The notes: generated by a model from the sequence alone, not told the origin. A stretch of DNA of 32,000 bases from Candidatus Saccharimonadota bacterium (GCA_965229705.1 OZ245922.1:750001-782000); one strand, 5' to 3'; shown: positions 10,864 through 27,256, counted from the first letter of the stretch. Numbers and translations: made by a program.

Positions 10864-11017
10864 TCTGTGTCTGAAATCAAGTAAGAAAGTGCTGGAAATA
10901 TCGAGGAGAAAGAAGTTTTTTGTATAAAAAATGAATGTCTTGAGTATAATGTGAAAAAGGTGTTTTTAAGAGAGTTCTGAGACATAAAAAATCTTGCGAA
11001 AGACTCGTCTCACATCC

Positions 11018-11124
11018 TTAAGGAGGATCTGAAAAACAAAAAATTTCTCATCCTCTCTGTCTCTATCGAGCCATCTCTTCTTTGTAAAAGGAGAGAAAAA
11101 ATGAGTTTCTCAGAGGTTCCTTAA
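11018..11124 (-). repeat. copy 1 of a ~105-bp TIR-bounded intergenic element (inverted relative to copies 3-5)
   Basis: The reverse complement reads TTAAGGAACCTCTGAGAAACTCATTTTTTCTCTCCTTTTACAAAGAAGAGATGGCTCGATAGAGACAGAGAGGATGAGAAATTTTTTGTTTTTCAGATCCTCCTTAA. This is near-identical to 21096..21202. It sits between the divergent starts of the giant gene and the A24-like gene. Confidence 0.8.
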
Positions 11125-11146
11125 AATAAGAATAAATTATAACTCT

Positions 11147-12469
11147 ATGCACATAATATCTTTTATAGAAATCTTTTGGTTCTTTTTTCTCTGGATCAAT
11201 ATATATATTGTTTGGAGAGATATAGCGTTTCAAAAGATAGAAAACGCATCTGTATGAATACTTTTTGCGCTATGATGTATATGATTTTTATTTGGAATAC
11301 TGAGTTTTTCATGGTGAGTATTGCTCTGGTTCCACCTTATCTTCTTGTGTATATTTCTCCTCTTTTACTTTGGTATTTGGTGAGCTGGAGATGCGAAATA
11401 TATACTTGTACTGAGTATATTTTTACCTGTAGGAAGTGTTTTTACACTTTTTTGAAATATTGCGATTGTTACCCTCCTGTATCTCATAGTTCATAGTATA
11501 CATCTGTACATCATCAAAAGTCTGTATGATCTCTCTCATGGGAAAAATCTCTTCATGAAAATATATGCCGACCTCAGATCAAAATTTGATGTATTTCTTG
11601 GAGGAGACGAAGCTCAAAAATATCAATGGAAAAACCTGATAGAAAAAATATTCCCCTTCCTTATAGGGTTTTTGATATTTTTTATCATCGTGCGGCTTGT
11701 ACGAATATATGCTCTATGAGAATGGCTCTGAAATGAAGAGGGGTGAAACAAGATCTGACTCCTACTTCAAATCGCAACAGAGTATACAAGTATGATTGTC
11801 TTGGGAATTATTATATGAATATATATCATCTATAAAGCATGCAAGAAAATCTTTTCCTCTATTTTTATATATGTATATACGCGTTTTTGAGTCTCTCAAG
11901 AAACAGCAAGATATATATGACTTATTGTTTCAAGTATCGGACTTATAGGTTTTATATCATACGAATATATCAGTGGCTCGGAAGTGATATGATGATACCT
12001 TGTCATGATATTCAGCGTATATATATTTCTCTATCTTACTGTGCGTCTTCTCATATATCTCCATTATGTTACTTTTCAACTTGCAGAAGTGGTATATAAG
12101 CGTATTTGAGAACTACAAGTTTGAGAGAGGGTAGACAAAGATTTTTTGATTCAAATTTTTGGAACACAAAAAGCCCTCTGATACGGAGAGAAAAAATGAA
12201 AATATGGTCCTGAACCTCGAAATTTTTTTACAAGTATTGAAAATCCTCTCTCTCAAGAAGCCGTTAAAGAGTTACAAAACATTTATCGACTCACAAATAA
12301 TTATCATATAAGACAAAAAACACCAGGATTTCAAAAAATAGAAGCTGTAAAAACCATCAAAAGTTTTGCTTTTTCTCCTTATATATTTTTCGGACTTATG
12401 CTGACCTTGATATATGATGATGTCCTCAAGAGTATTGTGGAGTTTTTTATCCACCTTATCACATCCTAA
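11147..12469 (+). CDS. A24-family (prepilin/preflagellin) aspartic peptidase-like polytopic membrane protein with a long C-terminal extension (440 aa)
   Basis: The plus frame is open from 10988 to the TAA at 12467-12469 once TGA is sense; the first ATG is at 11147. Two A24-type Asp motifs are present: VWRDIAFQKIEN (Asp codon 11219-11221) and GIW-G(TGA)-AGDAKYILVLSIF (GxGDxK, Asp codon 11390-11392). Many hydrophobic segments occur throughout. Confidence 0.7.
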
Positions 12470-13410
12470 AATACACTCCGTATTTCTTCTATCACTTCTT
12501 TTTTTCTCTCAGGAGATACCGTTTTAGGGTGCACTTTGATATAGTGGTAGTATTTATCATACTCATATATTCCTGTACATATATCATTCCATCCACAATC
12601 TTTGCATTCAGGAAGTTTGGTATGTTCCCAGTCTCTTTGTCTGATAGATTCTCGTTCATCAAGAAAATGTACAATTCTCTCTTCTTCTTTTACTATTTTT
12701 CGTGTTTCTGTAGATGACCATTCATAGCCTTCGATGAAGCAAAGAGGGACCTTCTCTGCTCTAAATGTTCTTCCAGTAGATGTGAGAAAGGCCATGGCCT
12801 CTCTCAGTGAGTCCGAAAACTCTCAAAAATCAGGAAGTGTACTCCAAGCAGTATCTGTTTTACGCATCATGAGAGGGTCTAGATTGTTCCAAACAAAGTG
12901 CTCTATAGGAGGAAAATGACGAACAAGAAACTTCACTGTTGCATCTAAATGATGCTGATTGTAATGGTTCATTACCGTATTGATTTGTACTCGTATACCG
13001 AGGTTAAGAGCGTGCGTAATCGACTTCATCAGGCGTTTCCACGATCCTGGTGTATCTGTCAAAAAATCATGTATTTGTTCATAACAGGAAAAAACAGAAA
13101 AATGTATAAGTTCCAGTCAAGCATCAGCAAGACGCTTTGTATATTCATAACTTGAACAGAGCATCCCATTGGAAATGATTCTATTGGACATACCAATATC
13201 AAGAGCGTACTCTATCCAGGCTGGTAGGTCTTTTGAAAGAGTTGGTTCTCCTCCTGTAAATATCACACCATGATAGCCTCTCTTTTTAAAATCATCTATG
13301 AGCTCAATACCTTTTTCATAGCTAATACTCTTCCCATTACTTGGATTACTACAAAAATGACACTGATTGTTACAATGCCTATTTACTTGTATGTATCAAA
13401 TATTTGCCAT
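12466..13410 (-). CDS. radical SAM enzyme with a Cys-rich (SPASM/twitch-like) C-terminus, 314 aa (rSAM-1; HxsC candidate)
   Basis: Track ORFs 12466..12795 and 12823..13062 plus the stretch up to the ATG at 13408-13410 are joined in one frame by TGA codons. The N-terminus is MANIGYIQVNRHCNNQCHFC, with CxxxCxxC at 13351-13374. Also present: FTGGEPTL and a C-terminal CKDCGWNDICTGIY. The stop is TAG at 12466-12468. Confidence 0.85.
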
Positions 13411-14959
13411 GAGTAAAGAAAAAAATACCATTTTAAACAGTTTCAGTATAATTCCTCTTATGAATCATCAAAAAAATATTTGAAAAAAAGCAGAGAGTAT
13501 ATCCTTGCTGATACATCTGGGGTATCAAACCCCTCAAACAATATTTATTGATACAGAAAGAAATCTACAAGATCAAATCCAAGACATATTTGAGTCGGAA
13601 AACTACATTGTAAGACCAAGTTTTTATGATGAAGATACTCCTCAAAACTCTCAGGCATGAAAATATAGATCATATTGACCAATAAGTCTCAAGGAACTTC
13701 AAATATTTTTTGAGAAAAATCTGAAGGATATATGCTCTATTTTTTGATGAGAAGAACAAGATTTATGAAGTATCATCCTGCAAGAATTTATCAGCACAAA
13801 TACTTATGGTGTTGGATTTTCTCGAAATCCTGAAAACATACTCTTCTCTTGATGATATGAACTTCATTCATCTTTCAATGGTATTACATCAGGGAAAAAA
13901 TGAGATCAAAAAGGATCATTGTTTCTCGATTATAAAATTCAAAAAACCATTAAACGCTTAGAAATTTCTTTTTGATATCCTCAAGATGTTGAGTTTGCCG
14001 TAAAAAAATGACATATATATATCCTCCAAAGTAGAAATATCACTAGTGGGATAACATCTTTTTCGGAATATGCAAAATTTCAAAAAATGAGCGGAATATT
14101 TCAAAACTTGGATAACGGTGAGTTTTGAAGTGTAGCATATTTTTGAGTATCTTTTTTAGAAAACCTATATCATACACTTATCATTTCGTGAAATATCTTC
14201 TGAAAAAGAAAAAAAAATGGAAAAAAGTATTTAGAGCAAGATATACAAAAATTTCAAAATCTTTATGGCAAATACCTAAGATGGAAAAAAATACACTCTA
14301 TAGGAAGCTTTTTTCTCTTTTTTCAAAAATATGATGTAGATGTGCTCTCAACACTTTATAAAAACTGTGCCTATCAATTTTCTCCCACTATAGCAACACG
14401 CTTTCCTGAGATACAAAAAATATGAAACAATTATAATCTAAAAACTTCTTTGTTATTGCGAAGTGAGTTCCTTAAATATAAGGCTTTTCAGGCTTTAGAG
14501 CCGGTAAAAAAACGTATTCTTCAGGAAAATATATTTTGAGAGGATATAAACTATCTATCATATAAAGAATATCAAGATACATCTATCCATCATGAAGAAA
14601 TTATCAAGCAGAGAAAAAAATCTCATGCTATTCATAAGACATATAGCTCTTATATAGTGATGATTCAATGAAAAATCCAAAAAAAATATAACACATTTCT
14701 ATCAGACAATACAGGTAAAATATGGATATATAGATGAAAGCTTACATGAAAAAAAGTCAGAGATATCAAACAGATAGATATAAAATCAAAAAAGAAGTAT
14801 CTTTTGGAAATACAAAGTCTGGATGGAGATATTTCCAGGTACTTGCCCCGTTTATGATGAGTAATTTTGATAAATGGAAATATGTATTCTCACCACTGCA
14901 TACTTTTGCGAGAACATAGAATACCAAGTTACCTTATTTCTGAAGACTGTGAAAGATAG
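13409..14959 (+). CDS. PEP/pyruvate-binding plus PEP-utilising mobile (swivelling His) domain protein, PEP synthase / rifampicin-phosphotransferase-like, 516 aa
   Basis: I checked the plus frame codon by codon from the ATG at 13409 to the TAG at 14957-14959. It contains more than 25 in-frame TGA codons and no TAA/TAG. PPDK_N-like motifs: VRPSFYDED, GVGFSRNPEN, YPQDVEFAVKKGHIYILQSRNITS. The C-terminal mobile domain reads GGVILINGNMYSHHCILLREHRIPSY, matching the family pattern G..tSHaAI.aRe.giP. Confidence 0.75.
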
Positions 14960-15656
14960 GTTCAATAATTTGACGACATTTCCCTGTATCAAGTCAAGTA
15001 TAAAGTCTTAAATAATCTCATTTCTTGGCAGCTTTAGAGTATGAAATACCAGTGTGGATATAGTATGAGAGAGTGATTCTGCATAGGTGCTTTACATCTT
15101 CATCTGCATAGTAGAAATCTTGTGAGGCAAAGATATTATTGAGAATATATGGAGAGGTTTCATTCAAAGTATTATCTACTTTTGTATCAAACTCATTTAT
15201 AAGCCTCTGAAATTGTATATGAAGTGAGTAAGCTGAAAAAACTAAAGGAACATTAAGTAACAAGATTAAAGCAAGCAAAAAGTAGGTTAAGAGGTATATT
15301 CAAAACTTATACACAAACAATAGACTTAGGACAACCCCAATAAGTAGATAAAAACTTATATTTTGATAATCTAACACCGTATCAAAAAACTGTATATTCA
15401 TAAGTCCCAGTTGATGAGGTCATACGAATAAAATAAGTGCAAGATAGGATAATACAACACTCATACTCAATAATATAAATAAGGTTATTCTCCATCTCAA
15501 AAGTAAACATACAAAAGACGAAGCAAAAACTCCTATTGATATATATACAAGTATAGCAATCTCATATATAAATGGTATCACTCAAAGAAAAGGAATAGCA
15601 TATGTAGTGTTATAGCTAAGAAAAAAAATAAAAATAGAAAGAATAATATATTTCAT
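14934..15656 (-). CDS. hypothetical polytopic integral membrane protein, 240 aa
   Basis: The minus frame runs from the ATG at 15654-15656 to the TAA at 14934-14936 and extends track ORF 15018..15278 through TGA codons. The N-terminal two-thirds is almost entirely hydrophobic helices (MKYIILSIFIFFLSY..., LLALILLLNVPLVF). I recognised no family. Confidence 0.6.
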
Positions 15657-15680
15657 AGGAGTTTATAAAAAATAATAACA

Positions 15681-16961
15681 TTATAATTTTTCTATCGGTT
15701 CAAGTATTTGAAATCCATAGCTTCGCAGAAAGTTTATATGAATTCCTTCACAGTTTTTAAAGTATTTACAAGAGTTGCACCTCAAAGATTTCTTTCGATA
15801 CAGCGTATCTATATACCTGTAAGTATAATCCGAGAGAGAATCCTCTGCTTTGACATCATGATAGTTTTGATATTTTCCTGATCCTCATAAACATTTTGGA
15901 ATATTTATGAGTTTGCCATGCTCTTTTTGTTTTTTCTTCAAAAATGCTCGAAACTCCTCCGGGCTTTCTCCATATGACTCATATACCTCACTTGGAAAAT
16001 TTTTTCATTCTACAATGTAGGCTTTCTCAAAAACTTGCTCCGACTCTTTGAGGTTTTTTAAAAATCAGTGACAAAACTGATGCTGAAAACATACCTCACA
16101 TGCGTCCCCAAAACAGCCTGGTTTTTCTTGTCATTTCGAAAGGATAAATCTCTCAAACATCCTATAGGCTTCTCCCATGATCTCCGACTTAAACTTGCGG
16201 GGGTCTTGTATTAGGTCTTCATATCCTTCAAACGCCTCAGCAGGAAATCTATTAGTCCACATATACATGCCCTCTACTCGTGAAAGACTCCAGGTTCGTA
16301 TAAGCTCATCCTTATAGTCCGCAATCTCATAAAAAAGTTTTTCTTTATTTTGCCTAAATCCTCTCCCAAAAGGAATAATCTGAAGAATATCAAACTCATA
16401 TACTCACAATCGCATAAAAAATGAAATAATATCAGGAAGGTAACGAACATTTGGCTTACAAACTACGATATCAATATTGACAATAACTTCGGGAAAAAAT
16501 TTTCGTATATATATCAATCCTGTAAGAGCTCTCTGAAAAGATCATGGTGCGTCTACGAGATAATCATGGAGTGCAGGGGTATGTCCATGAAAAGAAAATG
16601 TTACTTCCTCGAGTCCTGCGTCCACGACTTTTTTACAAAAGTCATAACTACGGAACATATTTCCATTTGTGACCGTTTGTACTCTATCATACCCAAGTTC
16701 CTTTGCGTAGCGTATATATTGTGGAAACTTTGGGTTGATACTTGCCTCTCCTCAAGAAATGATGACTCGGTTTTCATAACCTGCCTTGTACCCGTCTTTG
16801 ATTTCTTTTTTTACTTGTTCTTCTGAAGGAAATGTCCCATTTTGAGCATCGCTATCAAGACAAAAAACACATTTAACATTACAAGCAGAGGCAATGCGTA
16901 CCCAAATGCGATTTTGTTTTGTTGTGTGTTCTTTGGAGAGAAGATTTTCTTTATAAACCAT
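15681..16961 (-). CDS. radical SAM enzyme with two C-terminal Cys clusters (SPASM-like), about 426 aa (rSAM-2)
   Basis: I walked the frame from 16985 down to the TAA at 15681-15683; all interruptions are TGA. Motifs: ACNVKCVFC (16860-16883), VIIS-G(TGA 16752-16754)-EASINP for the GGE motif, and C-terminal CFGDACEVCFQHQFC and CNSCKYFKNCEG. The start is either the ATG at 16959-16961 or the TTG at 16983-16985. Confidence 0.85.
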
Positions 16962-18258
16962 AGTTTTTCTGTAATAAGAGAACAAATGAGGTATATCATC
17001 ATTTTTCGTTTTCCAAAAGGCTTTTTACATCTATATTTTCTATGAGGAGTCTATCTATAACTTTTGACTGTAAAGGCAAGATGATATCATTGTCTTGAAG
17101 TATTATTTCTCTATGAGGTCCATCATAATATATAAATTTTTTATATCAAATCTCCTCAAAAAAAGAGAGTTCTTCATCAAAGAGTGTATAGTTCTTTTGC
17201 ACAATTGCGAGGAAAAATCTGGCTTTATGAATAGCAAACTTTATTTCTTTTCATTTTCATAATATGTTTTCACAAAGATAGTATTTTGCTTGCTTATAGT
17301 ACCCTTTTCTGAAAAAAAATTTTCATATCCATAAATATATAGTTGCCCTCTGCGAATAAAAAAACTCTTTTCTTCGAGAATAATTTTTTAAGAAAAAGCC
17401 TACTGCTTTCCAATTATGACAATGCAAATAGAGAGCCAGTTCAAAAATAAAAATCCCTTTATTGTTTGGAAAGTATGTATGAGAGAGTTTGATATTTTCT
17501 TGTATTCGTTGGTACACGGCATTTTCTTTCGTCATCATTTCTTTTCGAATATGTGCTTGTTTTTCAACTTGTTCACTATTAAATCAAATGAAATACAGTG
17601 ATCTCACTTTTAAGGCGTAGATTTGTGAAAAAAAGGGATAGATACTACACGCCGTTACTAAATGCTTATATGAAGATAGATGATCTATATGATAAAAACT
17701 TGTATCTACAAATTGTAGCATAGAGCAATAAAATAGATTTTTTTCTGAAAGTTTTTCTCATATGATCGAAATTTTCTCCTGAATCTCTTCAAGATGAATC
17801 GTCAAATAAAATAGTTTTTGAAAAAAAGAAAGTTGGTGAAAAATGATTTTTTCCCTACAAAAAAGTATGTCATAAAGTTTTTTTGTGTATATGTTCACAA
17901 TGGAGGATTGTGATATATGGTTTTTAAACTCTCTTTTGTGTATATCAGTTTGTATCTCAACATATTTCCCCTCTTCACAGTAAGATACAATAGTATAGAA
18001 AAATCTATAGAGTTCTCTTTCTACATTATTTCAAAAAGTATGGTATGAAAATGCGTGATGATGATCTCAGTTAAGATACCTTTCTTCTAGAGAACCTTTT
18101 TTGTATTTTTTTAGCAAAGGACTATTTATATCCAAAAGTGCAGCTTTATCATCAGAGAGACGAACAAGCCTCGTATTTAAAATATGTATAAAAAAGGTGA
18201 AGAAGAGCTCTTCTCATACAAAATCATCTTCACGATTATGAGAAAGCATATCATTCAT
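16951..18258 (-). CDS. hypothetical protein, 435 aa, no recognisable family
   Basis: The minus frame is open from the ATG at 18256-18258 to the TAA at 16951-16953 and contains track ORF 17323..17538. All other interruptions are TGA. The 3' end overlaps the start of rSAM-2, which suggests co-translation within an operon. Confidence 0.6.
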
Positions 18259-18264
18259 GAAACA

Positions 18265-19425: not shown

Positions 19426-19450
19426 ATATTGTTTATAAAAAAGTAAAGTT

Positions 19451-19554
19451 ATGGAAGATATGACAAAAAAATCTTCAATCCACTCTGGCTCTATCGAGCC
19501 ACCTCTCCTTTGAAAAAGGAGAGAAAAAAGGACTTTCTCAGAGCTTCCTTATAA
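19451..19554 (-). repeat. copy 2 of the ~105-bp element (inverted; one arm degenerate)
   Basis: The reverse complement reads TTATAAGGAAGCTCTGAGAAAGTCCTTTTTTCTCTCCTTTTTCAAAGGAGAGGTGGCTCGATAGAGCCAGAGTGGATTGAAGATTTTTTTGTCAT.... Its right end overlaps the last codons and the TAA of rSAM-3 (19549-19551). Confidence 0.75.
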
Positions 19555-20520
19555 TATAATAGGTGTAAATATATCTTGAAACTCTTTTTCTCAAAATTGT
19601 TCTACATATCATTTCCATACTCACTGACAGGCATCTCGATATATGCATTTTTTACAGTGTGGAAACTGCGTTTTGAGAATGTCTTTCTTTCGTTTTTTCC
19701 AATTAAACTCATCCCCAGCATTGATATGGTCAACCTCTACAATATGATCATGATCTTCTCACAAATATTTTCGCGTGAGTTCTCTCCCATTTTTTTTATC
19801 AATAGCATAAAACACACAAGCAGGAATAGTATCAAAAGTGATACGTATATCATATTTTTCAGATATGTATATCAGTTTTTTTATATATGGGATAAAGTCA
19901 GAGTAGGTAATAGCCAGATCATCCCAGTACTCTCTCATATCATCATTGAGCCACATAAAGTTATAACGAATATCCCTCACTGATTTCTGAAAAGCGTAAA
20001 ATATTGCTGCTTCTCCCACAGTCTCGTAGTTCTTTTTATTGACAACATAGTTGATACTCAAGGCATCTTTGAGTAGTCCTTGCCTATGAAGTTCTTGGAG
20101 ATTATCTATTGCCTGCCACTTTCGTTCAAGTCCTCAGGGAACCTGGATGAGGTATTCTTCTACTTGTGGGATATATGAATGTATAGAGAAATTGACTCGC
20201 GTCACTCACGACTCAACAAATTTTCTTGCAAATAGGGGATCATCAAACTTCATGCCATTACTGATAACATTGATACTTGTAAATCCTTCATCTCTTGCAC
20301 ACGAAATAATCTCAAAGATTTTTGGATGTATAGAAATATCTCATCATAAAAATCCTATCGACTCATACCCTTCTGCTGCGTAGCCGGCTATCTTTTCTTG
20401 AAGGATTTCGAGTTTGACAAACTTGATATCCCAAAGCTCTGGTTTAGAACTCATACAAAAACGGCATTTATTATTACACGCCTTTCAAATATTTATCTCT
20501 ATATGCTTGTAGGGATTCAT
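19549..20520 (-). CDS. radical SAM enzyme with a short Cys-rich C-terminus, 323 aa (rSAM-3; HxsC candidate)
   Basis: The frame runs from the ATG at 20518-20520 to the TAA at 19549-19551 and includes track ORF 19759..20061. The N-terminus is MNPYKHIEINIGKACNNKCRFC (CxxxCxxC at 20455-20478). Also present: GFL-G-G(TGA TGA)-DISIHP and a C-terminal CKKCIYRDACQGVW. Confidence 0.85.
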
Positions 20521-20593
20521 ACTTTTTTCACTAAAATATTCCCTATAAGTGTACGAAGTTTACTCTCATCTCTATATTTTTTGAATTTTTTAT

Positions 20594-20622
20594 TTGACAA
20601 AATATATCTATATGTATATAAA
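20594..20622 (+). promoter_or_regulatory. putative sigma70-type promoter for the lipoprotein gene
   Basis: TTGACA at 20594-20599, a 17-nt spacer, then TATAAA at 20617-20622, preceded by a T-rich TTTTATTTGACA context. It lies inside a ~60-bp block (20541-20599) that is duplicated at 24254-24311. Confidence 0.45.
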
Positions 20623-20661
20623 TACTCCTGCAGAATAATTTATTCTTTAAATATTTTTATT

Positions 20662-21087
20662 ATGATGCAAGTAAATAGTCATTTAGGTGTTAACGAAAGT
20701 GCAAAAACACAAAGATCTCCTGTATATTGAATTGCTCATGCTGTAATAATAGCTGCTACTGCAATTCTTGCTACTTGATGTTCATCAGCTCCAGCAAACA
20801 CTGGTCAAGAAACTGTACTATCTGTAATAGAGGAATGACAACAATTTAAAAATTGGCCAACATTAGATAGATTCGGTCAATGTGAGTTCGACGATGAGCC
20901 TGAATATTATCAAAGACTGTGAGGAATGAGTACTAGATCAGAGCTAGAAGCTTATTATGAAGAAAATTGATGGGCTTTAAAACCTTGAGGTTACTGACAG
21001 CTTGTATTGAAGGTTTTGAAAAATGATCGTTTAACAGAAGCGGATAAGAGATCTCTCAGCTGTATCACTCTTGCGGGTTCAAATTAA
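20662..21087 (+). CDS. small lipoprotein, 141 aa, unknown function
   Basis: From ATGATG at 20662 to the TAA at 21085-21087, with 9 in-frame TGA codons. The lipobox is AILAT-G(TGA 20776-20778)-C-SSAP. The rest is acidic/aromatic (QCEFDDEPEYYQRLGG...EAYYEENGW). Confidence 0.7.
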
Positions 21088-21095
21088 AGTGTCAC

Positions 21096-21202
21096 TTAAG
21101 GAGACTCTGAGAAACTCATTCTTTCTCTCCTTTTACAAAGGAGAGATGGCTCGTTAGAGACAGAGTGGATTAGAAATTTTTTGTTTTTCAAGGTCTCCTT
21201 AA
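21096..21202 (+). repeat. copy 3 of the ~105-bp element (most complete copy)
   Basis: TTAAGGAGACTCTGAGAAACTCATTCTTTCTCTCCTTTTACAAAGGAGAGATGGCTCGTTAGAGACAGAGTGGATTAGAAATTTTTTGTTTTTCAAGGTCTCCTTAA. The terminal inverted repeats are TTAAGGAGAC...GTCTCCTTAA. The central perfect hairpin is TCTCTCCTTT-tac-AAAGGAGAGA. It lies between convergent gene ends. Confidence 0.8.
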
Positions 21203-21284
21203 AAAATATTTATCATACCCCTACATTGAGGTGGAGATTTTATATTATCGCTAAAGTCATTGCGTATATATAAAAGAAATCTTG

Positions 21285-21812
21285 TTATCTACCTCTTGTG
21301 TGTTGGTCTTTTCAACTTGATGAACTCCCATGACTCCCGTGTGAACCATGACTTCCGTGTGAACCATGTGATCAGTGAGATCAGTGACTCCCATGACTTC
21401 CATGGCTTCCATGTGATCAGTGACTCCCATGACTTCCATGTGATCAGTGACTACAGTGTCCTACAGGTGTCGCTGTTGCCGTAGGCTGAGCATTAAAATG
21501 TCCATTCACGATACCGCTTGAATGTGCTATAGAAAGGTTACATCACAGATTATAATTTCGATTTGATCCAGGATAACACACAGGAGTTGCACCTCATCAT
21601 CTATTTCCACTAAAGTGACCATACACTTCGGGTTCATTTATAGGATTAGCATATGAGTTACACTTTGGAAGCGCCGCATCTGCAAGCTCAATTCATCAAA
21701 GTAGCAGTCAGGCAGCTCCTATACCAAAAGCATCTTTTTTTGTGACTTTTCCACTCTCATCGGTGAGAAACTGTGAAAGTTTGAGTTTTATTTTTGGGAT
21801 TTTATTTTTCAT
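21285..21812 (-). CDS. hxsA: His-Xaa-Ser repeat protein (HxsA-like), 175 aa, ending in HCS followed by 14 HGS
   Basis: The minus frame from the ATG at 21810-21812 to the TAA at 21285-21287 contains 11 in-frame TGA codons. Translation: MKNKIPKIKLKLSQFLTDESGKVTKKDAFGIGAAGLLLGGIELADAALPKCNSYANPINEPEVYGHFSGNRGGGATPVCYPGSNRNYNLGCNLSIAHSSGIVNGHFNAQPTATATPVGHCS-(HGS)x14-SSSGKDQHTRGR. It lies 9 nt downstream of the HxsB-like gene on the same strand. Confidence 0.85.
21324..21458 (-). repeat. 15 x 9-nt coding tandem repeat (His-Xaa-Ser units)
   Basis: There are 15 consecutive CAY-(TGT/TGA/GGN)-(TCN/AGY) units. Gly is encoded by TGA in 4 units and by GGA/GGG/GGT in 10. Synonymous codons are mixed for all three positions. 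Confidence 0.9.
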
Positions 21813-21821
21813 GAGGTATTG

Positions 21822-23216
21822 TTAAAAAGCATAAGTAATCCATCGAGAAAAAAGTTTTTTTGCAAAATCATCATTTTCCAGTTTATCAAAGATATAGTCT
21901 AAAATTCATAACTGAAGCTTCATTTTTTGGTCTTCCATCATCGGAGAAAAGAGTGACTGATTTGTCTGAAAATTATGAATAATATCTACTCCAAGATATG
22001 GTTTATAAACATGGTCATTGTATCCAGGAAGTCCATCGAGACAACTCGATTGTACGGCTATCTTTGTAATAGGACTCGACATCATCGCTTTATAACTTTC
22101 TGCTCAATTTTCTTTGAGTTCTGTCATCAAAAAGTCTTCTATTCCCATTCGCCCTAACATGCGAGACTCATCACTTGCATAAATTTTCCCATCATAATTG
22201 TATGCCACTCACCCCACAGCAATACCACTCGGACTTCGTATATCCATAAATGCAGGATCAATATCATTAAATATCTTCATCAGGTACACAGAAGTGATTT
22301 GCTCTCTAAAGTCTTTTCACTGCTTGTTCAACTCTAAAATATAATCCATAGATTTTGTATAAAACTCCAGCCATTCATCTGCGGTATATGCCAATTTTTT
22401 CATATCTGCTGCGGCAAAACCATAAGGATTGAGCCATCTCAGAAAAATACCATCAAGTCATATATCCAAATAACTGTTAATAAGTCTTTGATATTCTGGA
22501 AGATTCTTCTTGGTTACCGTCATGAGAGCCCCTATCTTTGATCTCCCTTCTTTTTGTTTTCTGGCATTGATATGTTTGATCCAATAAGTAACTTTTTCAA
22601 AGCTATTTCCCTGAAAACCCGAACGATTCATATTATGATGTTGTTCATCGCCATCAAGGCTGGTACAGATAGAAATATTTCTCTCTAGGAGCCAATCCAG
22701 CTTTTCGTGAGTCATCAGTGTGAGATTACTCACGAGAGCAAAGCTCAGATTTTTTTGGAGATATTGAGCTCGAATGCTGGCATATTCAACAACAAATTGC
22801 AAAACTTCCCAATTTACCAGTGGTTCTCCTCACTGAAACTCTATGGTAATATTTTGTGCATTGGTATGAAGTATAGTATCAACGCATCTTTGCGCCGTCT
22901 CTTGCGTCATATCCAAGCCCTTTGCCGACATAGGTGCTACCGCTGCATGACAATACTGACAATGATGATTGCAACGAAGCGTCAGCACCATCATATGAAG
23001 AGCAGGTCATTGTCCTACAAAATGACTTTTTGCACCATAGGCTCTTGTCATCCATCTCTCATAATCTGGAGTTTTGATAAAGCCTTTTGCAACAAGGTCT
23101 TCGTAAGCATCAAGTTTTTCGAGAGTATTTCATGTAAGAAATGTTTCAAAATCTTGAGCAGATAAAAAATGAAATCGTCATGCGTCATTTGTGAGGAGAT
23201 ATGATCATGACATCAT
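21822..23216 (-). CDS. hxsB: radical SAM maturase, HxsB-like, 464 aa (rSAM-4)
   Basis: I walked the frame from ATGATG at 23211-23216 to the TAA at 21822-21824; it includes track ORF 22458..22802. Motifs: LTLRCNHHCQYCHA (Cys codons 22950-22973) and IEFQ-G(TGA 22830-22832)-GEPLV. It has the long N-terminal pre-domain and the size typical of the larger of the paired Hxs radical SAM proteins, and it sits directly upstream of the HGS-repeat gene. Confidence 0.8.
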
Positions 23217-23271
23217 TTTTTTAAAGCGAAAAAATCATATTTTTTCGGTATTTATACCTAAAATGCTCTCT

Positions 23272-23481
23272 TTATTCATACTGTATGCTTATAACATAAT
23301 TCATAAATTCTTGGAAAATATACGCCTCTTCATAGTCTTTTCCCTTTGAGGTAATAGTAATAAGAAATGTTCCTTCAGAAGAAGTAACAACAATATCAGC
23401 AATATCTTTATAGGCCTCTTTAGCACTTTCAAGAGCGTATTTTCAGTATATTTCTGAAGAAATTGAAAAAGAAGGTGTCAT
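23272..23481 (-). CDS. small protein, 69 aa, resembling the N-terminal half of the adjacent HxsD-like protein
   Basis: From the ATG at 23479-23481 to the TAA at 23272-23274: MTPSFSISSEIYGKYALESAKEAYKDIADIVVTSSEGTFLITITSKGKDYEEAYIFQEFMNYVISIQYE. The pattern is the same as residues 1-80 of the upstream gene (I..S.EIY...I..A.Y, a beta-rich middle, then EEIF..Y.N). Confidence 0.5.
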
Positions 23482-23487
23482 ATTTTT

Positions 23488-24045
23488 TTATTGAGTTTTA
23501 AACTTTTCTTTCATATCTTTCATCCCTTGAAGGTTTGCGGTAATTTTTGGCTTTTGTATACTTTTCTCTTCTATCTCCTTAAGTACTGACTCTATTTGCT
23601 TCGTATCTATATGGAGTTCTCTATCTTCTTCTATTTCTTTGAGTATATCATCTATATCTCTATCAAAATTGATGCTGTTATGAGCATTCTCATTTTGATC
23701 GCTATCATACGATACAAAGTGCTCTTGATCAAGAGGTCCTGTGAGAGCCTTATGAATAATGGTTTCTCGAATTTTTTGATTATCTTTTTCAAGTCTGTCT
23801 CGGAGATATGTGTCCAAAAGTTGATTGCTATATCTTCCAAAAATCTCCTCAATATCTGTTTCTACTCCATCTTTGAGGCTGATACTGAGAACAAGTCTCT
23901 TATCTGCGTCATAGTGAAAGAAAAAATATCCTATATCAAGGAGGTTATATGCCGCCTTAAAAATAATATCTTGAGCATAAATACTGGTATCAAGTATGAG
24001 TTCTCATTTTTTTCACTCGGCTTTTATAGAAAAAAAATCATCCAT
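23488..24045 (-). CDS. hxsD: HxsD-like protein (LLNDYxLRE-motif family), 185 aa
   Basis: From the ATG at 24043-24045 to the TAA at 23488-23490, extending track ORF 23488..23817 upstream through 2 TGA codons. It contains YSNQLLDTYLRDRLEKDNQKIRETIIHKAL, which fits the xLxDxxLR[DE] core of the HxsD signature, and it is the first gene of the hxs operon. The C-terminus is an acidic, coiled-coil-like tail. Confidence 0.65.
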
Positions 24046-24084
24046 AGTTGTTGTATATAATTTTATCTAAAGTGATTGAGAGGG

Positions 24085-24112
24085 AGTATATGATGATATG
24101 AATGAAAATCAA
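24085..24112 (-). promoter_or_regulatory. possible promoter of the hxsD-hxsB-hxsA operon
   Basis: On the minus strand: TTGATT (24107-24112), a 16-nt spacer, then TATACT (24085-24090), about 40 nt upstream of the ATG at 24045. Supported by motif match only. Confidence 0.3.
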
Positions 24113-24121
24113 TCCTAAAAA

Positions 24122-24227
24122 CCTCAAAGAACCTTTGAGAAACTCCTTTTTTCTTCTTTTTCAAAGGAGAGATGGCTCGCTAGAGCCAGAGTGGATTGGT
24201 GACTTTTTGTTTTTCAGAGCTTGCTTA
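24122..24227 (+). repeat. copy 4 of the ~105-bp element
   Basis: CTCAAAGAACCTTTGAGAAACTCCTTTTTTCTTCTTTTTCAAAGGAGAGATGGCTCGCTAGAGCCAGAGTGGATTGGTGACTTTTTGTTTTTCAGAGCTTGCTTAA. It sits between divergent gene starts. The second small hairpin is GGCTC-gcta-GAGCC. Confidence 0.75.
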
Positions 24228-24305
24228 ACTATTATATCCCTTTATATATTTATCCCTAAAGTGTACCCAGTTTACTCCCATCTCTATATTTTTTGAATTT
24301 TTTAT

Positions 24306-24334
24306 TTGACATACATTATAAAGTGATTATATAT
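24306..24334 (+). promoter_or_regulatory. putative sigma70-type promoter for the lipoprotein gene at 24372
   Basis: TTGACA at 24306-24311, a 17-nt spacer, then ATATAT at 24329-24334. It is embedded in the duplicated block 24254-24311, which is about 88% identical by eye to 20541-20599. Confidence 0.45.
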
Positions 24335-24371
24335 CATAATACGAAATAAAAACAAAGTCATAGGAGTTCTC

Positions 24372-24734
24372 ATGTTTAGATTATTTTGGGTCTTAGCCAG
24401 TTCTTCTCTTTTTTTTTCTGCTTGCGACATTTCGCAAGCAACAAAAAAAGAAAGTAATGTATTCAGCGCTATCGCGCCGAGATACAAAGATTTTTCTGGA
24501 GTCGACCACAAAAATATTCTTTGTGCCAATCCCGAAACCTATCGTACGGTAGGTCGAATGAAAACGGTTAAGCAAGTTCAGCGTTATTACGCTGAACTCG
24601 GATTCACAGGAGATATCCCTCGTGACAGCCCTTATGGGGCTGCAATTACTGCACTGCAAGGCACCAGCTTCACAATGCAAAAGGAAAAAGAGGAAGCATA
24701 TTGCTTCCATCAAGAGGACACAGGAGAGCTATAA
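24372..24734 (+). CDS. small lipoprotein, 120 aa, unknown function
   Basis: The track ORF is intact with no TGA. MFRLFWVLASSSLFFSAC is a signal peptide with a lipobox Cys. An SD-like TAGGAG lies 6 nt upstream of the ATG, and a strong terminator follows. Confidence 0.75.
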   Translation: MFRLFWVLASSSLFFSACDISQATKKESNVFSAIAPRYKDFSGVDHKNILCANPETYRTVGRMKTVKQVQRYYAELGFTGDIPRDSPYGAAITALQGTSFTMQKEKEEAYCFHQEDTGEL

Positions 24735-24765
24735 CTTGTCATTCCTAGTATCTCCCACACACATA

Positions 24766-24796
24766 ACAAGGCGCCCGTAGGCGCCTTGTTTCTTTG
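24766..24796 (+). terminator. rho-independent terminator
   Basis: A 10-bp GC-rich stem ACAAGGCGCC-cgta-GGCGCCTTGT is followed by TTCTTTG. Confidence 0.8.
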
Positions 24797-24814
24797 TATT
24801 CACTCCATTTTTAT

Positions 24815-24842
24815 TTGACAAACTCCCAGCTTTTTATAACAT
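24815..24842 (+). promoter_or_regulatory. possible rpsF operon promoter
   Basis: TTTTATTTGACA with TTGACA at 24815-24820. The -10 is weak or ambiguous (TAACAT at 16-nt spacing, or TATAAC at 14 nt). Confidence 0.3.
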
Positions 24843-24921
24843 TTTCCTGCTTTGAAAAACAAGCATTTTTATATCCTTCTACCGTGACTTTCAAAGACTG
24901 GTAGATAGTAACCATAGGATT

Positions 24922-25209
24922 ATGACTCAATATGAACTTATGATGATTCTCGACCCTGCTGTAGGAGAAAAAGAAAGAGCAGCAAGCGTTCAGAATGTCG
25001 AAACACTCCTCAAGAACGCAAAAGCAAAAGGAGTGAAAAAAGATGAGTGGGGTGAAAAAAAGCTCGCTTATAAAATAAAAGGCTCGCAAACAGGATACTA
25101 TATCTTGTGGTCTCTTGAGCTTGAAGGTACAGCTATCAAGAAAATGAATAATGAACTAAACCTTGATGGAAATATTTGGAGATACATGTTTGTTAATTTA
25201 GATGACTAA
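24922..25209 (+). CDS. rpsF: 30S ribosomal protein S6
   Basis: Intact ORF: MTQYELMMILDP...EWGEKKLAYKIKG...GYYILW. These are typical S6 motifs, and the gene lies in the rpsF-ssb-rpsR arrangement. Confidence 0.95.
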   Translation: MTQYELMMILDPAVGEKERAASVQNVETLLKNAKAKGVKKDEWGEKKLAYKIKGSQTGYYILWSLELEGTAIKKMNNELNLDGNIWRYMFVNLDD

Positions 25210-25218
25210 TACTATACT

Positions 25219-25629
25219 ATGAGAACGATAAATAAAGTAATCTTGATCGGAAATATTACCCGAGATCCTCTTATCAAAACAACCGAATGAGGAAAAAAAA
25301 TGGCAATGTTTACTACCGCAACAAATAGATATTATAAAACCTCTGATGGAGAAAATAAGTCTGAAGCAGAGTTTCATAACTGTGTCGCGTGGGGAACTCT
25401 TGCTGAAAGAGCTGAGCAGTTTCTCACAAAAGGAAAACTCGTTTATATAGAATGAAGACTCAAAACACGAGTCATAGAAAAAGAGGATGGAGAAAAAAAC
25501 TACAAAACCGAAGTCGTGGTAGCAAATATCATCTTCCTCAATAAAAAAGGCGACTTTGATGACAGTACATCAGAATCTCCCGAAACCCTCGATGCTCTTG
25601 AAAGTATTGATGACGATGATATGTTTTAA
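25219..25629 (+). CDS. ssb: single-stranded DNA-binding protein, 136 aa
   Basis: MRTINKVILIGNITRDPLIKTTE-G-GKKMAMFTTATNR...[32 protein letters not shown]...DDDDMF. The two in-frame TGA codons (25288-25290, 25453-25455) fall at conserved Gly positions. The acidic C-terminal tip is typical of SSB. Confidence 0.95.
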
Positions 25630-25650
25630 ACTCAACAAATACTCATATCC

Positions 25651-25713
25651 ACTTTCTACTTTTAACTTTCGAACTTTTCCCTTTCAACTTTCAACTTTCT
25701 ACTTTTAACTTTC
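25651..25713 (+). repeat. pyrimidine-rich direct repeats in the ssb-rpsR spacer
   Basis: ACTTTCTACTTTTAACTTTC occurs at 25651-25670 and again at 25694-25713, with CTTTCAACTTTCAACTTTC between them. Confidence 0.7.
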
Positions 25714-25740
25714 CCCTTTTACCTTTATAACACCCTTACT

Positions 25741-25962
25741 ATGAACCAAGAAAAAACTTGTCCACTTGACGGACAAAACATTGACTATAAAAATGTTGAA
25801 CTTCTCAAAAAATACCTTACAAAATTTGGAAAAATCATCCCAAGATACTACACTTGAGTATCTCTGAAAAACCAAAAGAAACTGGCAAAAGCTATCAAAA
25901 GAGCAAGAATCATGGCTCTTATCCCTTTTGTAAAAAGATTTGATCCAAACTTTGGAGCATAA
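25741..25962 (+). CDS. rpsR: 30S ribosomal protein S18, 73 aa
   Basis: [39 protein letters not shown](TGA 25855-25857)-VSLKNQKKLAKAIKRARIMALIPF. These are canonical S18 motifs. Confidence 0.95.
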
Positions 25963-25981
25963 ATATACTACTAATAAGCAT

Positions 25982-26434
25982 ATGAAACCATACTCTGTAC
26001 ACCTCGAAGACATACTCACAAAATTTCTTGTAGGGTTCTCTAGTGGTTTTTTTTCAGCATTTTTGATTGGAGGTATTCTCTTCTTTGCTGATGCTTTTCC
26101 CAGGATTGTAGAAAAGTTTTGAGCAAAAAATGAGTTTGTTGCCTTTTCTATTCATATGCTGGCAGGAATTATCATGGCAACTATTTTTTCGTTCCTATTT
26201 TATAGGAAAATTACATCATATACCATGAGCGTTGTATATGCTTCTATTTTTTCTCTTGTTTTCTGGTTATTTGCAACCGTTATTGTGAAACCATTAAAGT
26301 TTGGAGGAACTTTTCAAGAAGCTCTTTTAACCGTGTTTCAAAACCTCAATATCTTTTTCTGACATATTCTCTTCGGGATACTTTTAGGATTTGCTTTCTA
26401 TTATCTCAAAGGAATTATTAGGCTGAAAAAGTAA
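25982..26434 (+). CDS. hypothetical small membrane protein, 150 aa (about 4 TM helices)
   Basis: From the ATG at 25982 to the TAA at 26432-26434, joining track ORFs 25940..26122 and 26156..26362 through TGA codons at 26120-26122 and 26360-26362. Hydrophobic helices are visible (FLVGFSSGFFSAFLIGGILFF, MLAGIIMATIFSFLFY, and others). Confidence 0.65.
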
Positions 26435-26436
26435 CT

Positions 26437-26526
26437 TTAAGGAACCTCTGAGAAAGTCCTTTTTTCTCTCCTTTTACAAAGGAGAGATGACTCTGTAGAG
26501 CCAGAGTGGATTGGAAGATGGTTAAG
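26437..26526 (+). repeat. copy 5 of the ~105-bp element (right arm shortened)
   Basis: TTAAGGAACCTCTGAGAAAGTCCTTTTTTCTCTCCTTTTACAAAGGAGAGATGACTCTGTAGAGCCAGAGTGGATTGGAAGATGGTTAAG. It begins 3 nt after the stop of the preceding gene and lies between convergent gene ends. Confidence 0.75.
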
Positions 26527-26593
26527 TATTCAATTCACTTTCCAATTTTTTATGAGAATTTGGATTCATTTCTGTGTACTATTATTAGGTATT

Positions 26594-27190: not shown

Positions 27191-27256
27191 TTGATAGTAT
27201 TACTTAAAATATTTATTGGTATTTTATATGAAAGTCAATATTTGCAAAAATTTTAT

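What the first reader, a model, noticed from the sequence alone, without database searches (positions are those of the whole stretch)
11018..26526. Five copies of a ~105-bp element with TTAAGGA... terminal inverted repeats and a conserved internal hairpin (MITE-like, or a structured RNA family)
The copies are at 11018-11124 (-), 19451-19554 (-), 21096-21202 (+), 24122-24227 (+) and 26437-26526 (+).

They share TTAAGGAaCCTCTGAGAAAsTCnTTTTTTCTCTCCTTTTACAAAGGAGAGATGGCTCGnTAGAGcCAGAGTGGATTnGnAAnTTTTTTGTTTTTCAGAnC..CCTTAA. Structural features:
- a perfect 10-bp hairpin, TCTCTCCTTT/AAAGGAGAGA;
- a second small hairpin, GGCTC-nnnn-GAGCC;
- roughly 19-bp termini that can pair with each other.

The copies occur in divergent, convergent and co-directional spacers, in both orientations. 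Two have a degraded arm, and one overlaps the stop codon of rSAM-3. Five copies in 32 kb of a tightly packed genome is a very high density.

The TTAA ends and the variable decay look MITE-like. The conserved nested stems could equally specify an RNA or a protein-binding site. In three cases the element borders the Hxs and giant-protein loci.
Basis: seen in the sequence. Interest (0 to 1): 0.7.

Follow-up and report, generated by a model that had tools for sequence, protein, structure and literature searches.

The report
Small palindromic mobile-element repeats in Gracilibacteria
Five copies (plus one fragment) of a ~105-bp hairpin-forming repeat between genes of an uncultured marine Gracilibacteria genome look most like a decaying miniature transposon (MITE) family, an ordinary kind of element not yet described in this lineage, and two copies flank a peptide-maturation gene cluster that a sister strain lacks.

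Summary
There are five copies at the stated coordinates (nhmmer E 1e-35 to 1e-38; core pattern 5 hits vs 0 expected), plus a sixth solo arm at 10966-10989(-).

The genome reads TGA as Gly (code 25, marine Ca. Gracilibacteria). All copies lie between genes, in both orientations.

Evidence for a MITE-like non-autonomous element:
- The terminal inverted repeats are 17-19 bp.
- The ends carry TTAA; c2 has ATAA at both ends as a direct repeat, so a 4-bp target duplication is likely.
- The copies carry no ORF.
- Decay is variable: c5 lacks an arm, and c2 and c4 have degraded arms.
- A different Gracilibacteria species (L015) has a 138-bp element with near-identical termini (perfect 18-bp TIR) but a largely different interior.

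Evidence against a structured-RNA family: no Rfam match, covariation no better than shuffles, and no clear strand asymmetry.

A ~97%-identical strain (L001) has a single c3/c4 chimeric copy where the window has c3, the HxsD/B/A cluster and c4. The repeats therefore act as recombination substrates.

Not shown: an autonomous transposase partner, an empty site, or the genome-wide copy number (the source genome could not be retrieved). No copy was found in GTDB representative genomes, JGI metagenomes or IMG/VR.

Verdict: a new member of a known kind, of modest interest.

The parts
11018..11124 (-). Copy c1, full length (107 bp). It lies in the divergent spacer between the giant-protein gene (start 10863, -) and a peptidase-A24-like membrane protein gene (11147, +). 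It has TTAA at both ends.
   Evidence: 90% complementary to c3 over 107 nt; E 9.6e-38; 119.5 bits. RNA fold -36 kcal/mol, z -3.4.
10966..10989 (-). Solo right-arm-like fragment (TTTTATGTCTCAGAACTCTCTTAA), 28 nt beyond c1 in the same orientation. It is probably the remnant of another copy.
   Evidence: the right-arm pattern gives 3 hits in the window (this one, c1 and c4) vs 0.02 expected; the left-arm pattern also hits 10966-10983(+).
19449..19552 (-). Copy c2, in the co-directional spacer between rSAM-3 (HxsC4-like, 19549-20520, -) and a TPR lipoprotein gene (18265-19425, -). It is flanked by ATAA at both ends as a direct repeat. The rSAM-3 stop codon TAA (19551-19549) lies in the left ATAA. 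The right arm has a 3-nt deletion.
   Evidence: E 2.9e-35; 109.8 bits, 19449-19552. Gene identities.
21096..21202 (+). Copy c3, the best preserved (107 bp). It lies in the convergent spacer between lipoprotein gene lipoA (stop 21087, +) and HxsA (stop 21285, -). Its features are: left arm 21096-21114, hairpin 1 at 21124-21146, hairpin 2 at 21148-21161, right arm 21184-21202.
   Evidence: E 3e-37; 125 bits. RNA fold -42 kcal/mol, z -4.6, 0/200 shuffles as good.
24124..24228 (+). Copy c4, in the divergent spacer between HxsD (start ~24063, -) and lipoprotein gene lipoB (24372, +). The left arm is degraded (TCAAAGAACCTTTGAG), and there is a 2-nt deletion before hairpin 1.
   Evidence: E 1.5e-35; 108.8 bits.
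26437..26526 (+). Copy c5, truncated. The left arm and core are intact, and the right arm is missing. Similarity ends near 26517, followed by ATGG-TTAA. It starts 2 nt after the stop of a membrane-protein gene (25982-26434, +). It is identical in strain L001.
   Evidence: E 4e-35; L001 11508-11630 identical; 93.1 bits.
21203..24123 (-). His-Xaa-Ser cluster bracketed by the direct copies c3 and c4: HxsA 21285-21812, HxsB 21822-23279, an HxsD-like gene, and HxsD up to ~24063. The whole segment plus one repeat equivalent is absent from strain L001, which carries a single chimeric copy.
   Evidence: NCBIfam: HxsB 466.6 bits, HxsD, HxsD_rel, HxsA4. blastn window vs L001. Alignment of the L001 copy with c3 and c4.

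Best explanation
[quoted passage not shown] Proposed mechanism (inferred): they were mobilised in trans by a DDE transposase that recognises the ~18-26-bp terminal inverted repeats (consensus TTAA-GGAAGCTCTGAGAAA ... TTTTTCAGAGCTTCC-TTAA). They inserted at TTAA-like (WTAA) sites in AT-rich intergenic DNA and duplicated the target.

The copies are now old. They are 80-92% identical to each other, several arms are damaged, and one copy is truncated identically in two strains. They probably no longer move.

Their present effect is passive. As dispersed ~100-bp homologies they serve as crossover points for gain or loss of flexible gene blocks. The Hxs cluster sits between two direct copies and is missing in a sister strain that keeps one chimeric copy. 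When co-transcribed they would form a long hairpin.

Shown:
- The repeat family exists.
- It has terminal inverted repeats.
- The termini are conserved across two species.
- The sister strain carries a chimeric copy.

Inferred:
- Transposition occurred.
- The target duplication is 4 bp.
- The transposase belongs to an IS5-like or IS630-like family.
For: - **Terminal arms:** they pair over 17-19 bp, 16/17 in c3 and in the L001 copy. The structure as a whole is 83.8% paired, against 41-54% when partners are slid.
- **Ends:** TTAA at both ends of c1, c3, the L001 copy and the L015 element. c2 has ATAA at both ends, which is a direct rather than an inverted match and is what a 4-bp target duplication predicts.
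- **Second species:** L015 (Ca. Gracilibacteria ALOHA_ZT_17, BipA 83% identical) carries a 138-bp element. Its 18-bp TIR is perfect (TTAAAGAAGCTCTGAAAA / TTTTCAGAGCTTCTTTAA). About 26 nt at each end resemble the window family, while most of the interior differs. It folds as one long hairpin, z -7.1 and -8.5. Conserved ends with a free interior are what transposase recognition predicts.
- **Placement and decay:** no ORF, intergenic only, both orientations, all three spacer types, variable decay, and a solo arm next to c1.
- **No functional RNA signal:** no known RNA family matches, covariation is not above shuffles, and G.U 14 vs A.C 8 gives no strand signal.
- **Location in flexible DNA:** c1, c2, c3 and c4 lie in or at segments that differ between the window and the ~97%-identical strain L001. 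The L001 copy has c3's flank and left arm joined to c4's interior, right arm and flank.
- **Patchy distribution:** absent from syntenic and other regions of about ten other Gracilibacteria genomes. The core pattern is absent from GTDB representatives, JGI metagenomes and IMG/VR.
- **Fit to the published description:** prokaryotic MITEs are described as <500 bp, with TIRs of 4-30 bp and flanking direct repeats, AT-rich and intergenic, with stable stem-loop transcripts (PMC10969869).
Against: - No transposase gene with matching ends was found. The only IS seen (IS1595 family, in L001) has unrelated ends, GGGTCTTGCCCAGTT.
- No filled-versus-empty site pair was found. The copy shared with L001 (c5) is present in both strains, and the other copies are missing only as part of larger differences.
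- TTAA is its own reverse complement, so for most copies it could be part of the inverted repeat rather than a duplication. The direct-repeat argument rests on c2 alone.
- The central hairpin, with its TTTTACAA-type loop, is also present in the L015 element with a different stem. That could hint at selection on structure.
- Genome-wide copy number is unknown, because the 1,006,762-bp source contig could not be retrieved.
Confidence: 0.65

Rival explanations
1. A family of cis-acting structured RNAs, comparable to functional REP, ERIC or BOX elements. Transcribed within UTRs or operon spacers, the long hairpin would set mRNA 3' ends, block exonucleases or provide an RNase III site, tuning expression of the adjacent surface-protein, lipoprotein and Hxs genes. 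This could be an exaptation of a MITE.
For: - c1 and c3 fold well beyond shuffled controls, z -3.4 and -4.6.
- Pairing is 84%, against about 50% in slid controls.
- Positions 6-8 of the outer stem show A-U, G-C and G.U variants among c2, c3 and the L001 copy (2 pairs changed on both sides).
- A central hairpin with a similar loop recurs in the L015 element with a different stem.
- c2 sits inside an operon-like co-directional gene pair, in sense orientation.
Against: - No Rfam match, even at E<=10.
- The covariation score is 0.091, against a shuffled mean of 0.097, and 395/500 shuffles do as well.
- Covariation in terminal arms is equally expected for transposase-recognised TIRs.
- Hairpins 1 and 2 carry uncompensated mismatches in 3 of 5 copies.
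- There is no consistent orientation or distance relative to genes, and two copies lie in convergent spacers.
- There is no strand asymmetry in wobble pairs.
- c5 lacks a whole arm yet is conserved identically in both strains.
Confidence: 0.15
2. Recombination sites of a cassette system, analogous to integron attC sites or other hairpin-recognised sites. A dedicated recombinase would insert and excise gene cassettes, such as the Hxs cluster, at the element.
For: - The Hxs cluster is bracketed by two direct copies, and a sister strain has exactly one chimeric copy at that place. This is the product expected from excision or integration of a circle.
- Several copies border strain-variable blocks.
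- The element is an imperfect palindrome about the size of an attC site.
Against: - Ordinary homologous recombination between 105-bp direct repeats gives the same product.
- The other two strain differences (10921-15687 and 17529-20643) do not end at elements.
- Copies occur in both orientations rather than as a one-way array.
- No integrase or recombinase domain was found among the window proteins scanned.
- The ends lack the attC R''/R' core (RYYYAAC...GTTRRRY).
- The closest Hxs clusters in other genomes have no such element nearby.
Confidence: 0.07
3. A palindromic operator or nucleoid-protein binding site repeated upstream of a regulon of envelope and secreted-protein genes.
For: Neighbouring genes are enriched for a giant surface protein, lipoproteins, membrane proteins and a secreted-peptide system. 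The element has a palindromic architecture.
Against: - At 105 bp, the element is far larger than typical operators.
- c3 and c5 lie between convergent gene ends, where no promoter is expected.
- Arms are lost or degraded without conservation of any short core shared by all copies at a fixed distance from starts.
- No promoter-like hexamer pair is called inside the copies.
Confidence: 0.04
4. A purely local segmental duplication, with no dispersed family.
For: All five copies lie within 15.5 kb, and no copy was found in the public collections by exact pattern.
Against: - Similarity stops sharply at the TTAA ends, and the flanks are unrelated.
- The copies are in both orientations.
- A homologous-ended element exists in another species at an unrelated locus, between radC and gyrB.
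Confidence: 0.03

Closest known systems
RUP (repeat unit of pneumococcus), a 107-bp MITE of Streptococcus pneumoniae thought to be mobilised by IS630-Spn1 (my own knowledge; family named in PMC10969869 and PMC3049150)
   Same: Same size class (about 107 bp). Both have terminal inverted repeats, are AT-rich and intergenic, occur as many diverged copies, fold into a long hairpin, sit at A/T-rich target sites containing TA, and are found clustered in flexible regions.
   Different: No sequence relationship was tested or seen. RUP duplicates TA, whereas here a 4-bp TTAA/ATAA is the better fit. The partner IS is known for RUP and unknown here. The host is a code-25 CPR bacterium.
Correia elements (NEMIS/CREE) of Neisseria
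   Same: Both are 100-155-bp elements with ~26-bp TIRs, a TA-containing target, intergenic or operon-internal location, transcribed hairpins, and a role as recombination and rearrangement substrates.
   Different: Correia elements carry IHF sites and outward promoters, and are cleaved by RNase III. None of this could be tested here, and no promoter-like sites were called inside the copies.
IS5-family insertion sequences and their MITE derivatives
   Same: IS5 duplicates a 4-bp YTAR target, which includes TTAA (PMC5009759). The E. coli IS5 inverted repeat GGAAGGTGCGAAT shares 10 of 15 positions with the element arm GGAAGCTCTGAGAAA that follows TTAA.
   Different: The resemblance is short and untested statistically. 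c2's ATAA does not fit YTAR. No IS5-type transposase was found in the window or in related loci.
ERIC/IRU and REP/BIME elements of enterobacteria
   Same: Both are imperfect palindromes in transcribed intergenic regions, with lineage-restricted and patchy distribution, and can affect mRNA stability.
   Different: REPs are 20-40 nt and depend on RAYT (IS200/IS605-like) transposases. ERIC lacks a clear TSD. The present element has long, distinct terminal arms with TTAA ends.
Integron attC sites
   Same: Both are imperfect palindromes of 60-140 bp that bound gene cassettes. One cassette-like block here (Hxs) is bracketed by two direct copies.
   Different: There is no RYYYAAC/GTTRRRY core, no IntI, mixed orientations, and the copies are not arranged in an array.

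Membership tests
Prokaryotic MITE (definition as in PMC10969869, section 2.1) | Short (<500 bp), with no transposase or other ORF | tested here: met
   The copies are 105-107 bp (138 bp in L015). There are frame-breaking indels between copies, and no shared ORF.
Prokaryotic MITE | Terminal inverted repeats (~4-30 bp) | tested here: met
   The arms are 17-19 bp. Pairing is 16/17 in c3 and in the L001 copy, and 18/18 in L015.
Prokaryotic MITE | Flanking direct repeats (target-site duplication) | tested here: inconclusive
   TTAA lies at both ends of c1, c3, the L001 copy and L015, but TTAA is palindromic. c2 has ATAA...ATAA as a true direct repeat. c4 has TCAA...TTAA.
Prokaryotic MITE | Multiple dispersed copies in AT-rich intergenic DNA | tested here: met
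   There are 5 copies plus 1 fragment in five different spacers of a 35.6% GC window. Genome-wide copy number was not testable.
Prokaryotic MITE | An autonomous IS with matching ends that can mobilise it | tested here: inconclusive
   No such IS is present in the window. The IS1595-family element in L001 has different ends.
Prokaryotic MITE | Insertion polymorphism (filled vs empty site between strains or species) | tested here: inconclusive
   c5 is present in both strains. The other copies differ only as part of larger indels. The L015 spacer is not alignable with that of its nearest relative.
Prokaryotic MITE | Transcript or strand folds into a stable stem-loop | tested here: met
   MFE is -29.5 to -42 kcal/mol, with z from -1.4 to -4.6. 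For L015, z is -7.1 and -8.5.
Any Rfam RNA family | Covariance-model match at or near the gathering score | tested here: not met
   There are 0 hits at gathering thresholds over the window. No element-length hit appears at E<=10 over 19300-27300.
Conserved structured RNA (generic) | Compensatory base changes beyond what shared ancestry gives | tested here: not met
   The covariation score is 0.091 against a shuffled mean of 0.097, and 395/500 shuffles do at least as well. Only 7 sequences were available, so power is low.
Integron attC | R''/R' core sites (RYYYAAC...GTTRRRY), a neighbouring IntI, and a co-oriented array | tested here: not met
   The ends read TTAAGGAAG.../...CTTCCTTAA. Orientations are mixed. 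No recombinase domain was found among the scanned proteins.
IS5-family derivative | 4-bp YTAR target duplication and GGAAGG-type inverted repeats | tested here: inconclusive
   TTAA fits YTAR (PMC5009759), but c2's ATAA does not. The arm shares 10/15 positions with the E. coli IS5 IR. No transposase was found.
REP/RAYT system | 20-40-nt GC-rich palindromes with a conserved GTAG-type head, plus a RAYT gene | tested here: not met
   The element is 105 bp, AT-rich and has long terminal arms. No Y1-transposase domain was found in the scanned proteins.

The most novel reading that the evidence does not exclude
The elements may be more than decaying MITEs. They could be working modules of genome flexibility in a reduced CPR symbiont: hairpin-forming sites at which blocks encoding surface and secreted products (the Hxs peptide cluster, lipoproteins, the giant-protein locus) are exchanged between strains by a dedicated, still unidentified recombinase or transposase. 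Under this reading the conserved central hairpin is a functional DNA or RNA signal rather than a relic.
Probability: 0.08. Interest if true: 0.7.

Novelty: new member of a known kind. Interest (0 to 1): 0.3.

Why it matters
Interspersed repeat families have hardly been described in Candidate Phyla Radiation bacteria. A full-text search found no paper that mentions both MITEs and Gracilibacteria.

A MITE family in a ~1-Mb, code-25 genome shows three things:
- Even these streamlined genomes carry, or have carried, active DNA transposons.
- It gives a practical marker for strain typing, and an explanation for assembly breaks.
- It identifies the sequence at which a RiPP-like His-Xaa-Ser cluster is gained or lost between near-identical strains.

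The finding does not change any general concept. Small palindromic mobile repeats that also act as recombination substrates are well known in many bacteria.

Tried and rejected
- **Exact-pattern scans of public collections.** The 30-nt core gave 0 hits in GTDB representative genomes, JGI metagenomes and IMG/VR. In hindsight the core was the wrong probe. Arm-pair patterns in IMG/VR also gave 0 hits.
- **Retrieving the source genome.** The 1,006,762-bp contig holding P0001, P0241 and P0270 cannot be looked up. Only rpsF, which has no TGA, could be used, and it yielded strain L001.
- **BipA-based locus fetch in JGI metagenomes.** This returned only distant taxa.
- **Searching with the L001 IS1595 transposase, to sample more contigs of the species.** The best hits were 84-85% identical, on 1-2-kb contigs, and were useless for this purpose. 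The ends of this IS do not match the element, so it is rejected as the parent.
- **Covariation and strand tests.** Covariation is not above shuffles, and wobble counts are not decisive.
- **A third internal helix (CTCAT/ATGAG in c1 versus AGTCC/GGATT in c2 and c5).** The register differs between subfamilies, so the idea was dropped (alignment, inspected by eye).
- **Reciprocal-recombinant reading of c3 and c4.** The idea was that the c4 left arm pairs with the c3 right arm. Position 10 supports it, but positions 4 and 7 favour c3's own arms, so it remains unresolved.
- **Empty-site search for the L015 element in its nearest relative (L028).** Only the gyrB coding sequence aligns.
- **Mini-ORFs and SD-like motifs inside the element** (for example ATGAGTTTCTCAGAGGTTCCTTAA on the antisense strand of c1 and c3). 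They are not conserved among copies and were rejected as coding.
- **The hypervariable repeat locus described for a Gracilibacterium (PMC6851277).** That is a coding PTD tripeptide repeat and is unrelated.

Full report
**Observation**

The five sequences read at the stated coordinates align over about 105 nt, with 85% mean column identity.
- A 30-nt degenerate core (CAAAGNAGAGNTGNCTCNNTAGAGNCAGAG) hits exactly these five places, against 0.00 expected in dinucleotide shuffles.
- The repeat finder links them pairwise at 82-92% identity. For example, 11018-11124 and 21096-21202 are 90% complementary over 107 nt.
- An nhmmer profile recovers them at E 9.6e-38 to 4e-35, with nothing else above noise.
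- A right-arm pattern search adds a sixth, partial member: a solo arm at 10966-10989(-), 28 nt from c1 (3 hits vs 0.02 expected).

Hairpin 1 is perfect in c3 and c5 only. GGCTC/GAGCC is perfect in c2 and c4 only. Three copies have a damaged arm: c5 has no right arm, c2 has a 3-nt deletion, and c4 has a degraded left arm.

**Context**

With the standard bacterial code the window is almost ORF-free. With TGA read as sense it is densely coding, including an ORF of more than 3,650 codons. TGA = Gly fits the His-Xaa-Ser repeats (GSHGSHG...) and conserved BipA positions, which indicates code 25.

BipA is 83% identical to two marine Candidatus Gracilibacteria MAGs. The source is a 1,006,762-bp contig that could not be retrieved.

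Gene order:

| Feature | Coordinates / strand |
|---|---|
| Giant protein | - |
| c1 (plus solo arm) | |
| Peptidase-A24-like membrane protein | + |
| Radical SAM 1 | - |
| PPDK_N-like protein | + |
| Membrane protein | - |
| Radical SAM 2 | - |
| Unknown protein | - |
| TPR lipoprotein | - |
| c2 | |
| Radical SAM 3, HxsC4-like | - |
| Lipoprotein A | + |
| c3 | |
| HxsA, HxsB, HxsD-like, HxsD | all - |
| c4 | |
| 53-nt promoter-like repeat | |
| Lipoprotein B | + |
| rpsF-ssb-rpsR | |
| Membrane protein | + |
| c5 | |
| Unassigned ORF | |
| bipA, methyltransferase, SDR, dnaE | |

The copies therefore lie in divergent (c1, c4), convergent (c3, c5) and co-directional (c2) spacers, in both orientations. 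The rSAM-3 stop codon (19551-19549) lies in the terminal ATAA of c2.

**Anatomy**

The consensus is:
TTAA-GGAAcCTCTGAGAAA-CTCcTTTTT-[TCTCTCCTTT-tac-AAAGGAGAGA]-T-[GGCTC-gata-GAGCC]-AGAGTGGATTgGAAATTTTTTG-TTTTTCAGAtCcTCC-TTAA.

The outer arms pair over 17-19 bp, including a conserved G.T. Single-strand folds give -29.5 to -42 kcal/mol, with z from -1.4 to -4.6.

On a 7-sequence alignment, the three-helix model is 83.8% paired, against 41-54% when partners are slid. Covariation, however, is no better than column shuffles: score 0.091 against a mean of 0.097, with 395/500 shuffles at least as high. G.U cells (14) versus A.C cells (8) do not single out a transcribed strand, and four of the G.U cells are one inherited pair. 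Rfam gives nothing at gathering thresholds, and no element-length hit even at E<=10.

**Relatives**

- **Public collections.** The core pattern is absent from one genome per GTDB species, from JGI metagenome contigs and from IMG/VR.
- **Sister strain L001.** The ribosomal protein S6 sequence led to L001, an ENA contig about 97% identical to the window. L001 has the c5 orthologue, identical and with the same missing arm. It has one further copy, at 9206-9310.
- **Second species, L015.** A covariance model built from six copies recovers all known copies at 93-125 bits. It also finds one new element, L015 3356-3493, in Ca. Gracilibacteria ALOHA_ZT_17 (29.3 bits, E about 1e-4). That element is 138 bp and lies between radC-like and gyrB genes. 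It has a perfect 18-bp terminal inverted repeat, TTAAAGAAGCTCTGAAAA / TTTTCAGAGCTTCTTTAA. It shares about 26 nt at each end and a central CTTTTACAAG motif with the window family, and is otherwise different. It folds as one long hairpin, z -7.1 and -8.5.
- **Other relatives.** No paired-arm element occurs in the other loci fetched. These total 570,751 bases, of which about 330 kb come from some ten other Gracilibacteria. They include regions syntenic to the window and the closest Hxs clusters.

**Strain comparison**

L001 differs from the window by three block differences:
- Window 10921-15687, which contains c1 and four genes, is absent from L001.
- Window 17529-20643, which contains c2, is replaced by an IS1595-family IS with ends GGGTCTTGCCCAGTT.
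- Window 21203-24123, the Hxs cluster, is absent from L001.

Only the third difference is bounded by elements. The window has lipoA-c3-Hxs-c4-lipoB, and L001 has lipoA-X-lipoB. X carries c3's left flank and left arm (2 substitutions), joined to c4's interior, right arm and right flank (2 substitutions). This is the product of a crossover between two direct repeats, or of the reverse integration of a circle. It needs nothing more than homologous recombination.

**Interpretation**

The following features match the published description of prokaryotic MITEs (PMC10969869):
- small size
- no coding capacity
- long terminal inverted repeats
- A/T-rich tetranucleotide ends
- intergenic AT-rich location
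- mixed orientation
- copy-to-copy decay
- a solo arm
- patchy lineage distribution
- termini conserved across species while the interior drifts

The ATAA...ATAA direct repeat of c2 argues for a 4-bp target duplication. For the other copies TTAA is ambiguous, because it is palindromic.

TTAA is one of the YTAR targets of IS5 (PMC5009759). The arm following TTAA (GGAAGCTCTGAGAAA) shares 10 of 15 positions with the E. coli IS5 inverted repeat GGAAGGTGCGAATAA. This is a lead, not a test. A TA-duplicating IS630-type partner, as for pneumococcal RUP, is equally possible.

What is missing for proof is a transposase-bearing relative with the same ends, a filled/empty site pair, and the genome-wide copy number.

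**Rivals**

- **Functional structured RNA (0.15).** It is not excluded, but it has no positive statistical support. It also fits poorly with convergent-spacer copies and with uncompensated mismatches.
- **Site-specific cassette recombination site (0.07).** It is suggested only by the Hxs bracket. It is weakened by mixed orientations, by the lack of a recombinase, and by the two strain differences that do not end at elements.
- **Operator-type site (0.04) and purely local duplication (0.03).** Both are unlikely.

**Verdict**

This is a real, well-defined repeat family. It is most probably a decaying MITE family of marine Gracilibacteria that now serves as a substrate for recombination in a flexible genome region. 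It is a new member of a known kind, and interest is modest (0.3).

Noticed in passing
whole window, e.g. 21285-21812(-) and 27325-29127(+): TGA is a sense codon. There are 82 in-frame TGAs in the giant ORF. Reading TGA as Gly restores the GSHGSHG repeats of HxsA and conserved BipA residues, so the genome uses code 25 (Gracilibacteria/Absconditabacteria).
   Followed up: yes
20547-20599 and 24259-24311 (+); also L001 9335-9393: A 53-nt direct repeat (94% identical) ending in TTGACA. In each case it lies upstream of one of two paralogous small lipoprotein genes (lipoA ~20650-21087, lipoB 24372-24734). It is likely a duplicated promoter/5' region, separate from the 105-bp element.
   Followed up: partly
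25648-25731 (+): About six tandem 14-15-nt units (ACTTTCNACTTTTA-like) fill the spacer between ssb and rpsR (rpsR = 25741-25956). They are conserved in strain L001, and their function is unknown.
   Followed up: partly
L001 7995-8748: The sister strain carries a 754-bp IS1595-family insertion sequence (230-aa DDE_Tnp_IS1595, TIR GGGTCTTGCCCAGTT) where the window has 17529-20643. Homologues at no more than 85% identity are abundant on short metagenome contigs.
   Followed up: yes
10921-15687 vs L001 6084-6164: A 4.8-kb block is absent from the sister strain. It holds c1, the peptidase-A24-like gene, radical SAM 1, a PPDK_N-like gene and a membrane protein. The left breakpoint is 58 nt upstream of the giant-protein start, not at an element.
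   Followed up: partly
12466-13410, 15681-16961, 19549-20520, 21822-23279 (all -): There are four radical-SAM genes in 11 kb, of which one is a clear HxsB and one is HxsC4-like. A second HxsB paralogue (P0270, 60% identical) sits elsewhere on the same 1.0-Mb source contig.
   Followed up: partly
1-10863 (-): A giant protein of more than 3,600 residues runs off the window. Its N-terminus has a signal/TM-like segment. Its promoter region contains c1 and the solo arm.
   Followed up: no
11018-11029 (c1 right arm): The arm reads GATCCTCCTTAA, resembling the 3' end of 16S rRNA (anti-Shine-Dalgarno). The opposite strand reads TTAAGGAGGATC, a strong SD-like motif. No conserved start codon follows, so this is probably incidental to the palindrome.
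   Followed up: partly
L015 3099-3200 (-): A weak covariance-model hit (20.6 bits) lies just upstream of gyrB. It consists of the hairpin TTTCTCCCTTTTAAAGAGGGAG followed by CAGAGTGGA, reminiscent of the element core but without arms. It is possibly chance.
   Followed up: no
26518-27111 (+) / 26594-27034 (-): Two overlapping ORFs on opposite strands lie between c5 and bipA. Neither has a family hit, and both are 100% conserved in L001. Which one, if either, is a gene is unresolved.
   Followed up: partly
L015 918-992 and 3512-3586: The ALOHA_ZT_17 contig has its own 75-nt repeat, containing a terminator-like hairpin (GTGCCAAAGTGGTTTTGGCAC plus a T-run). One copy lies next to the 138-bp element.
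   Followed up: no
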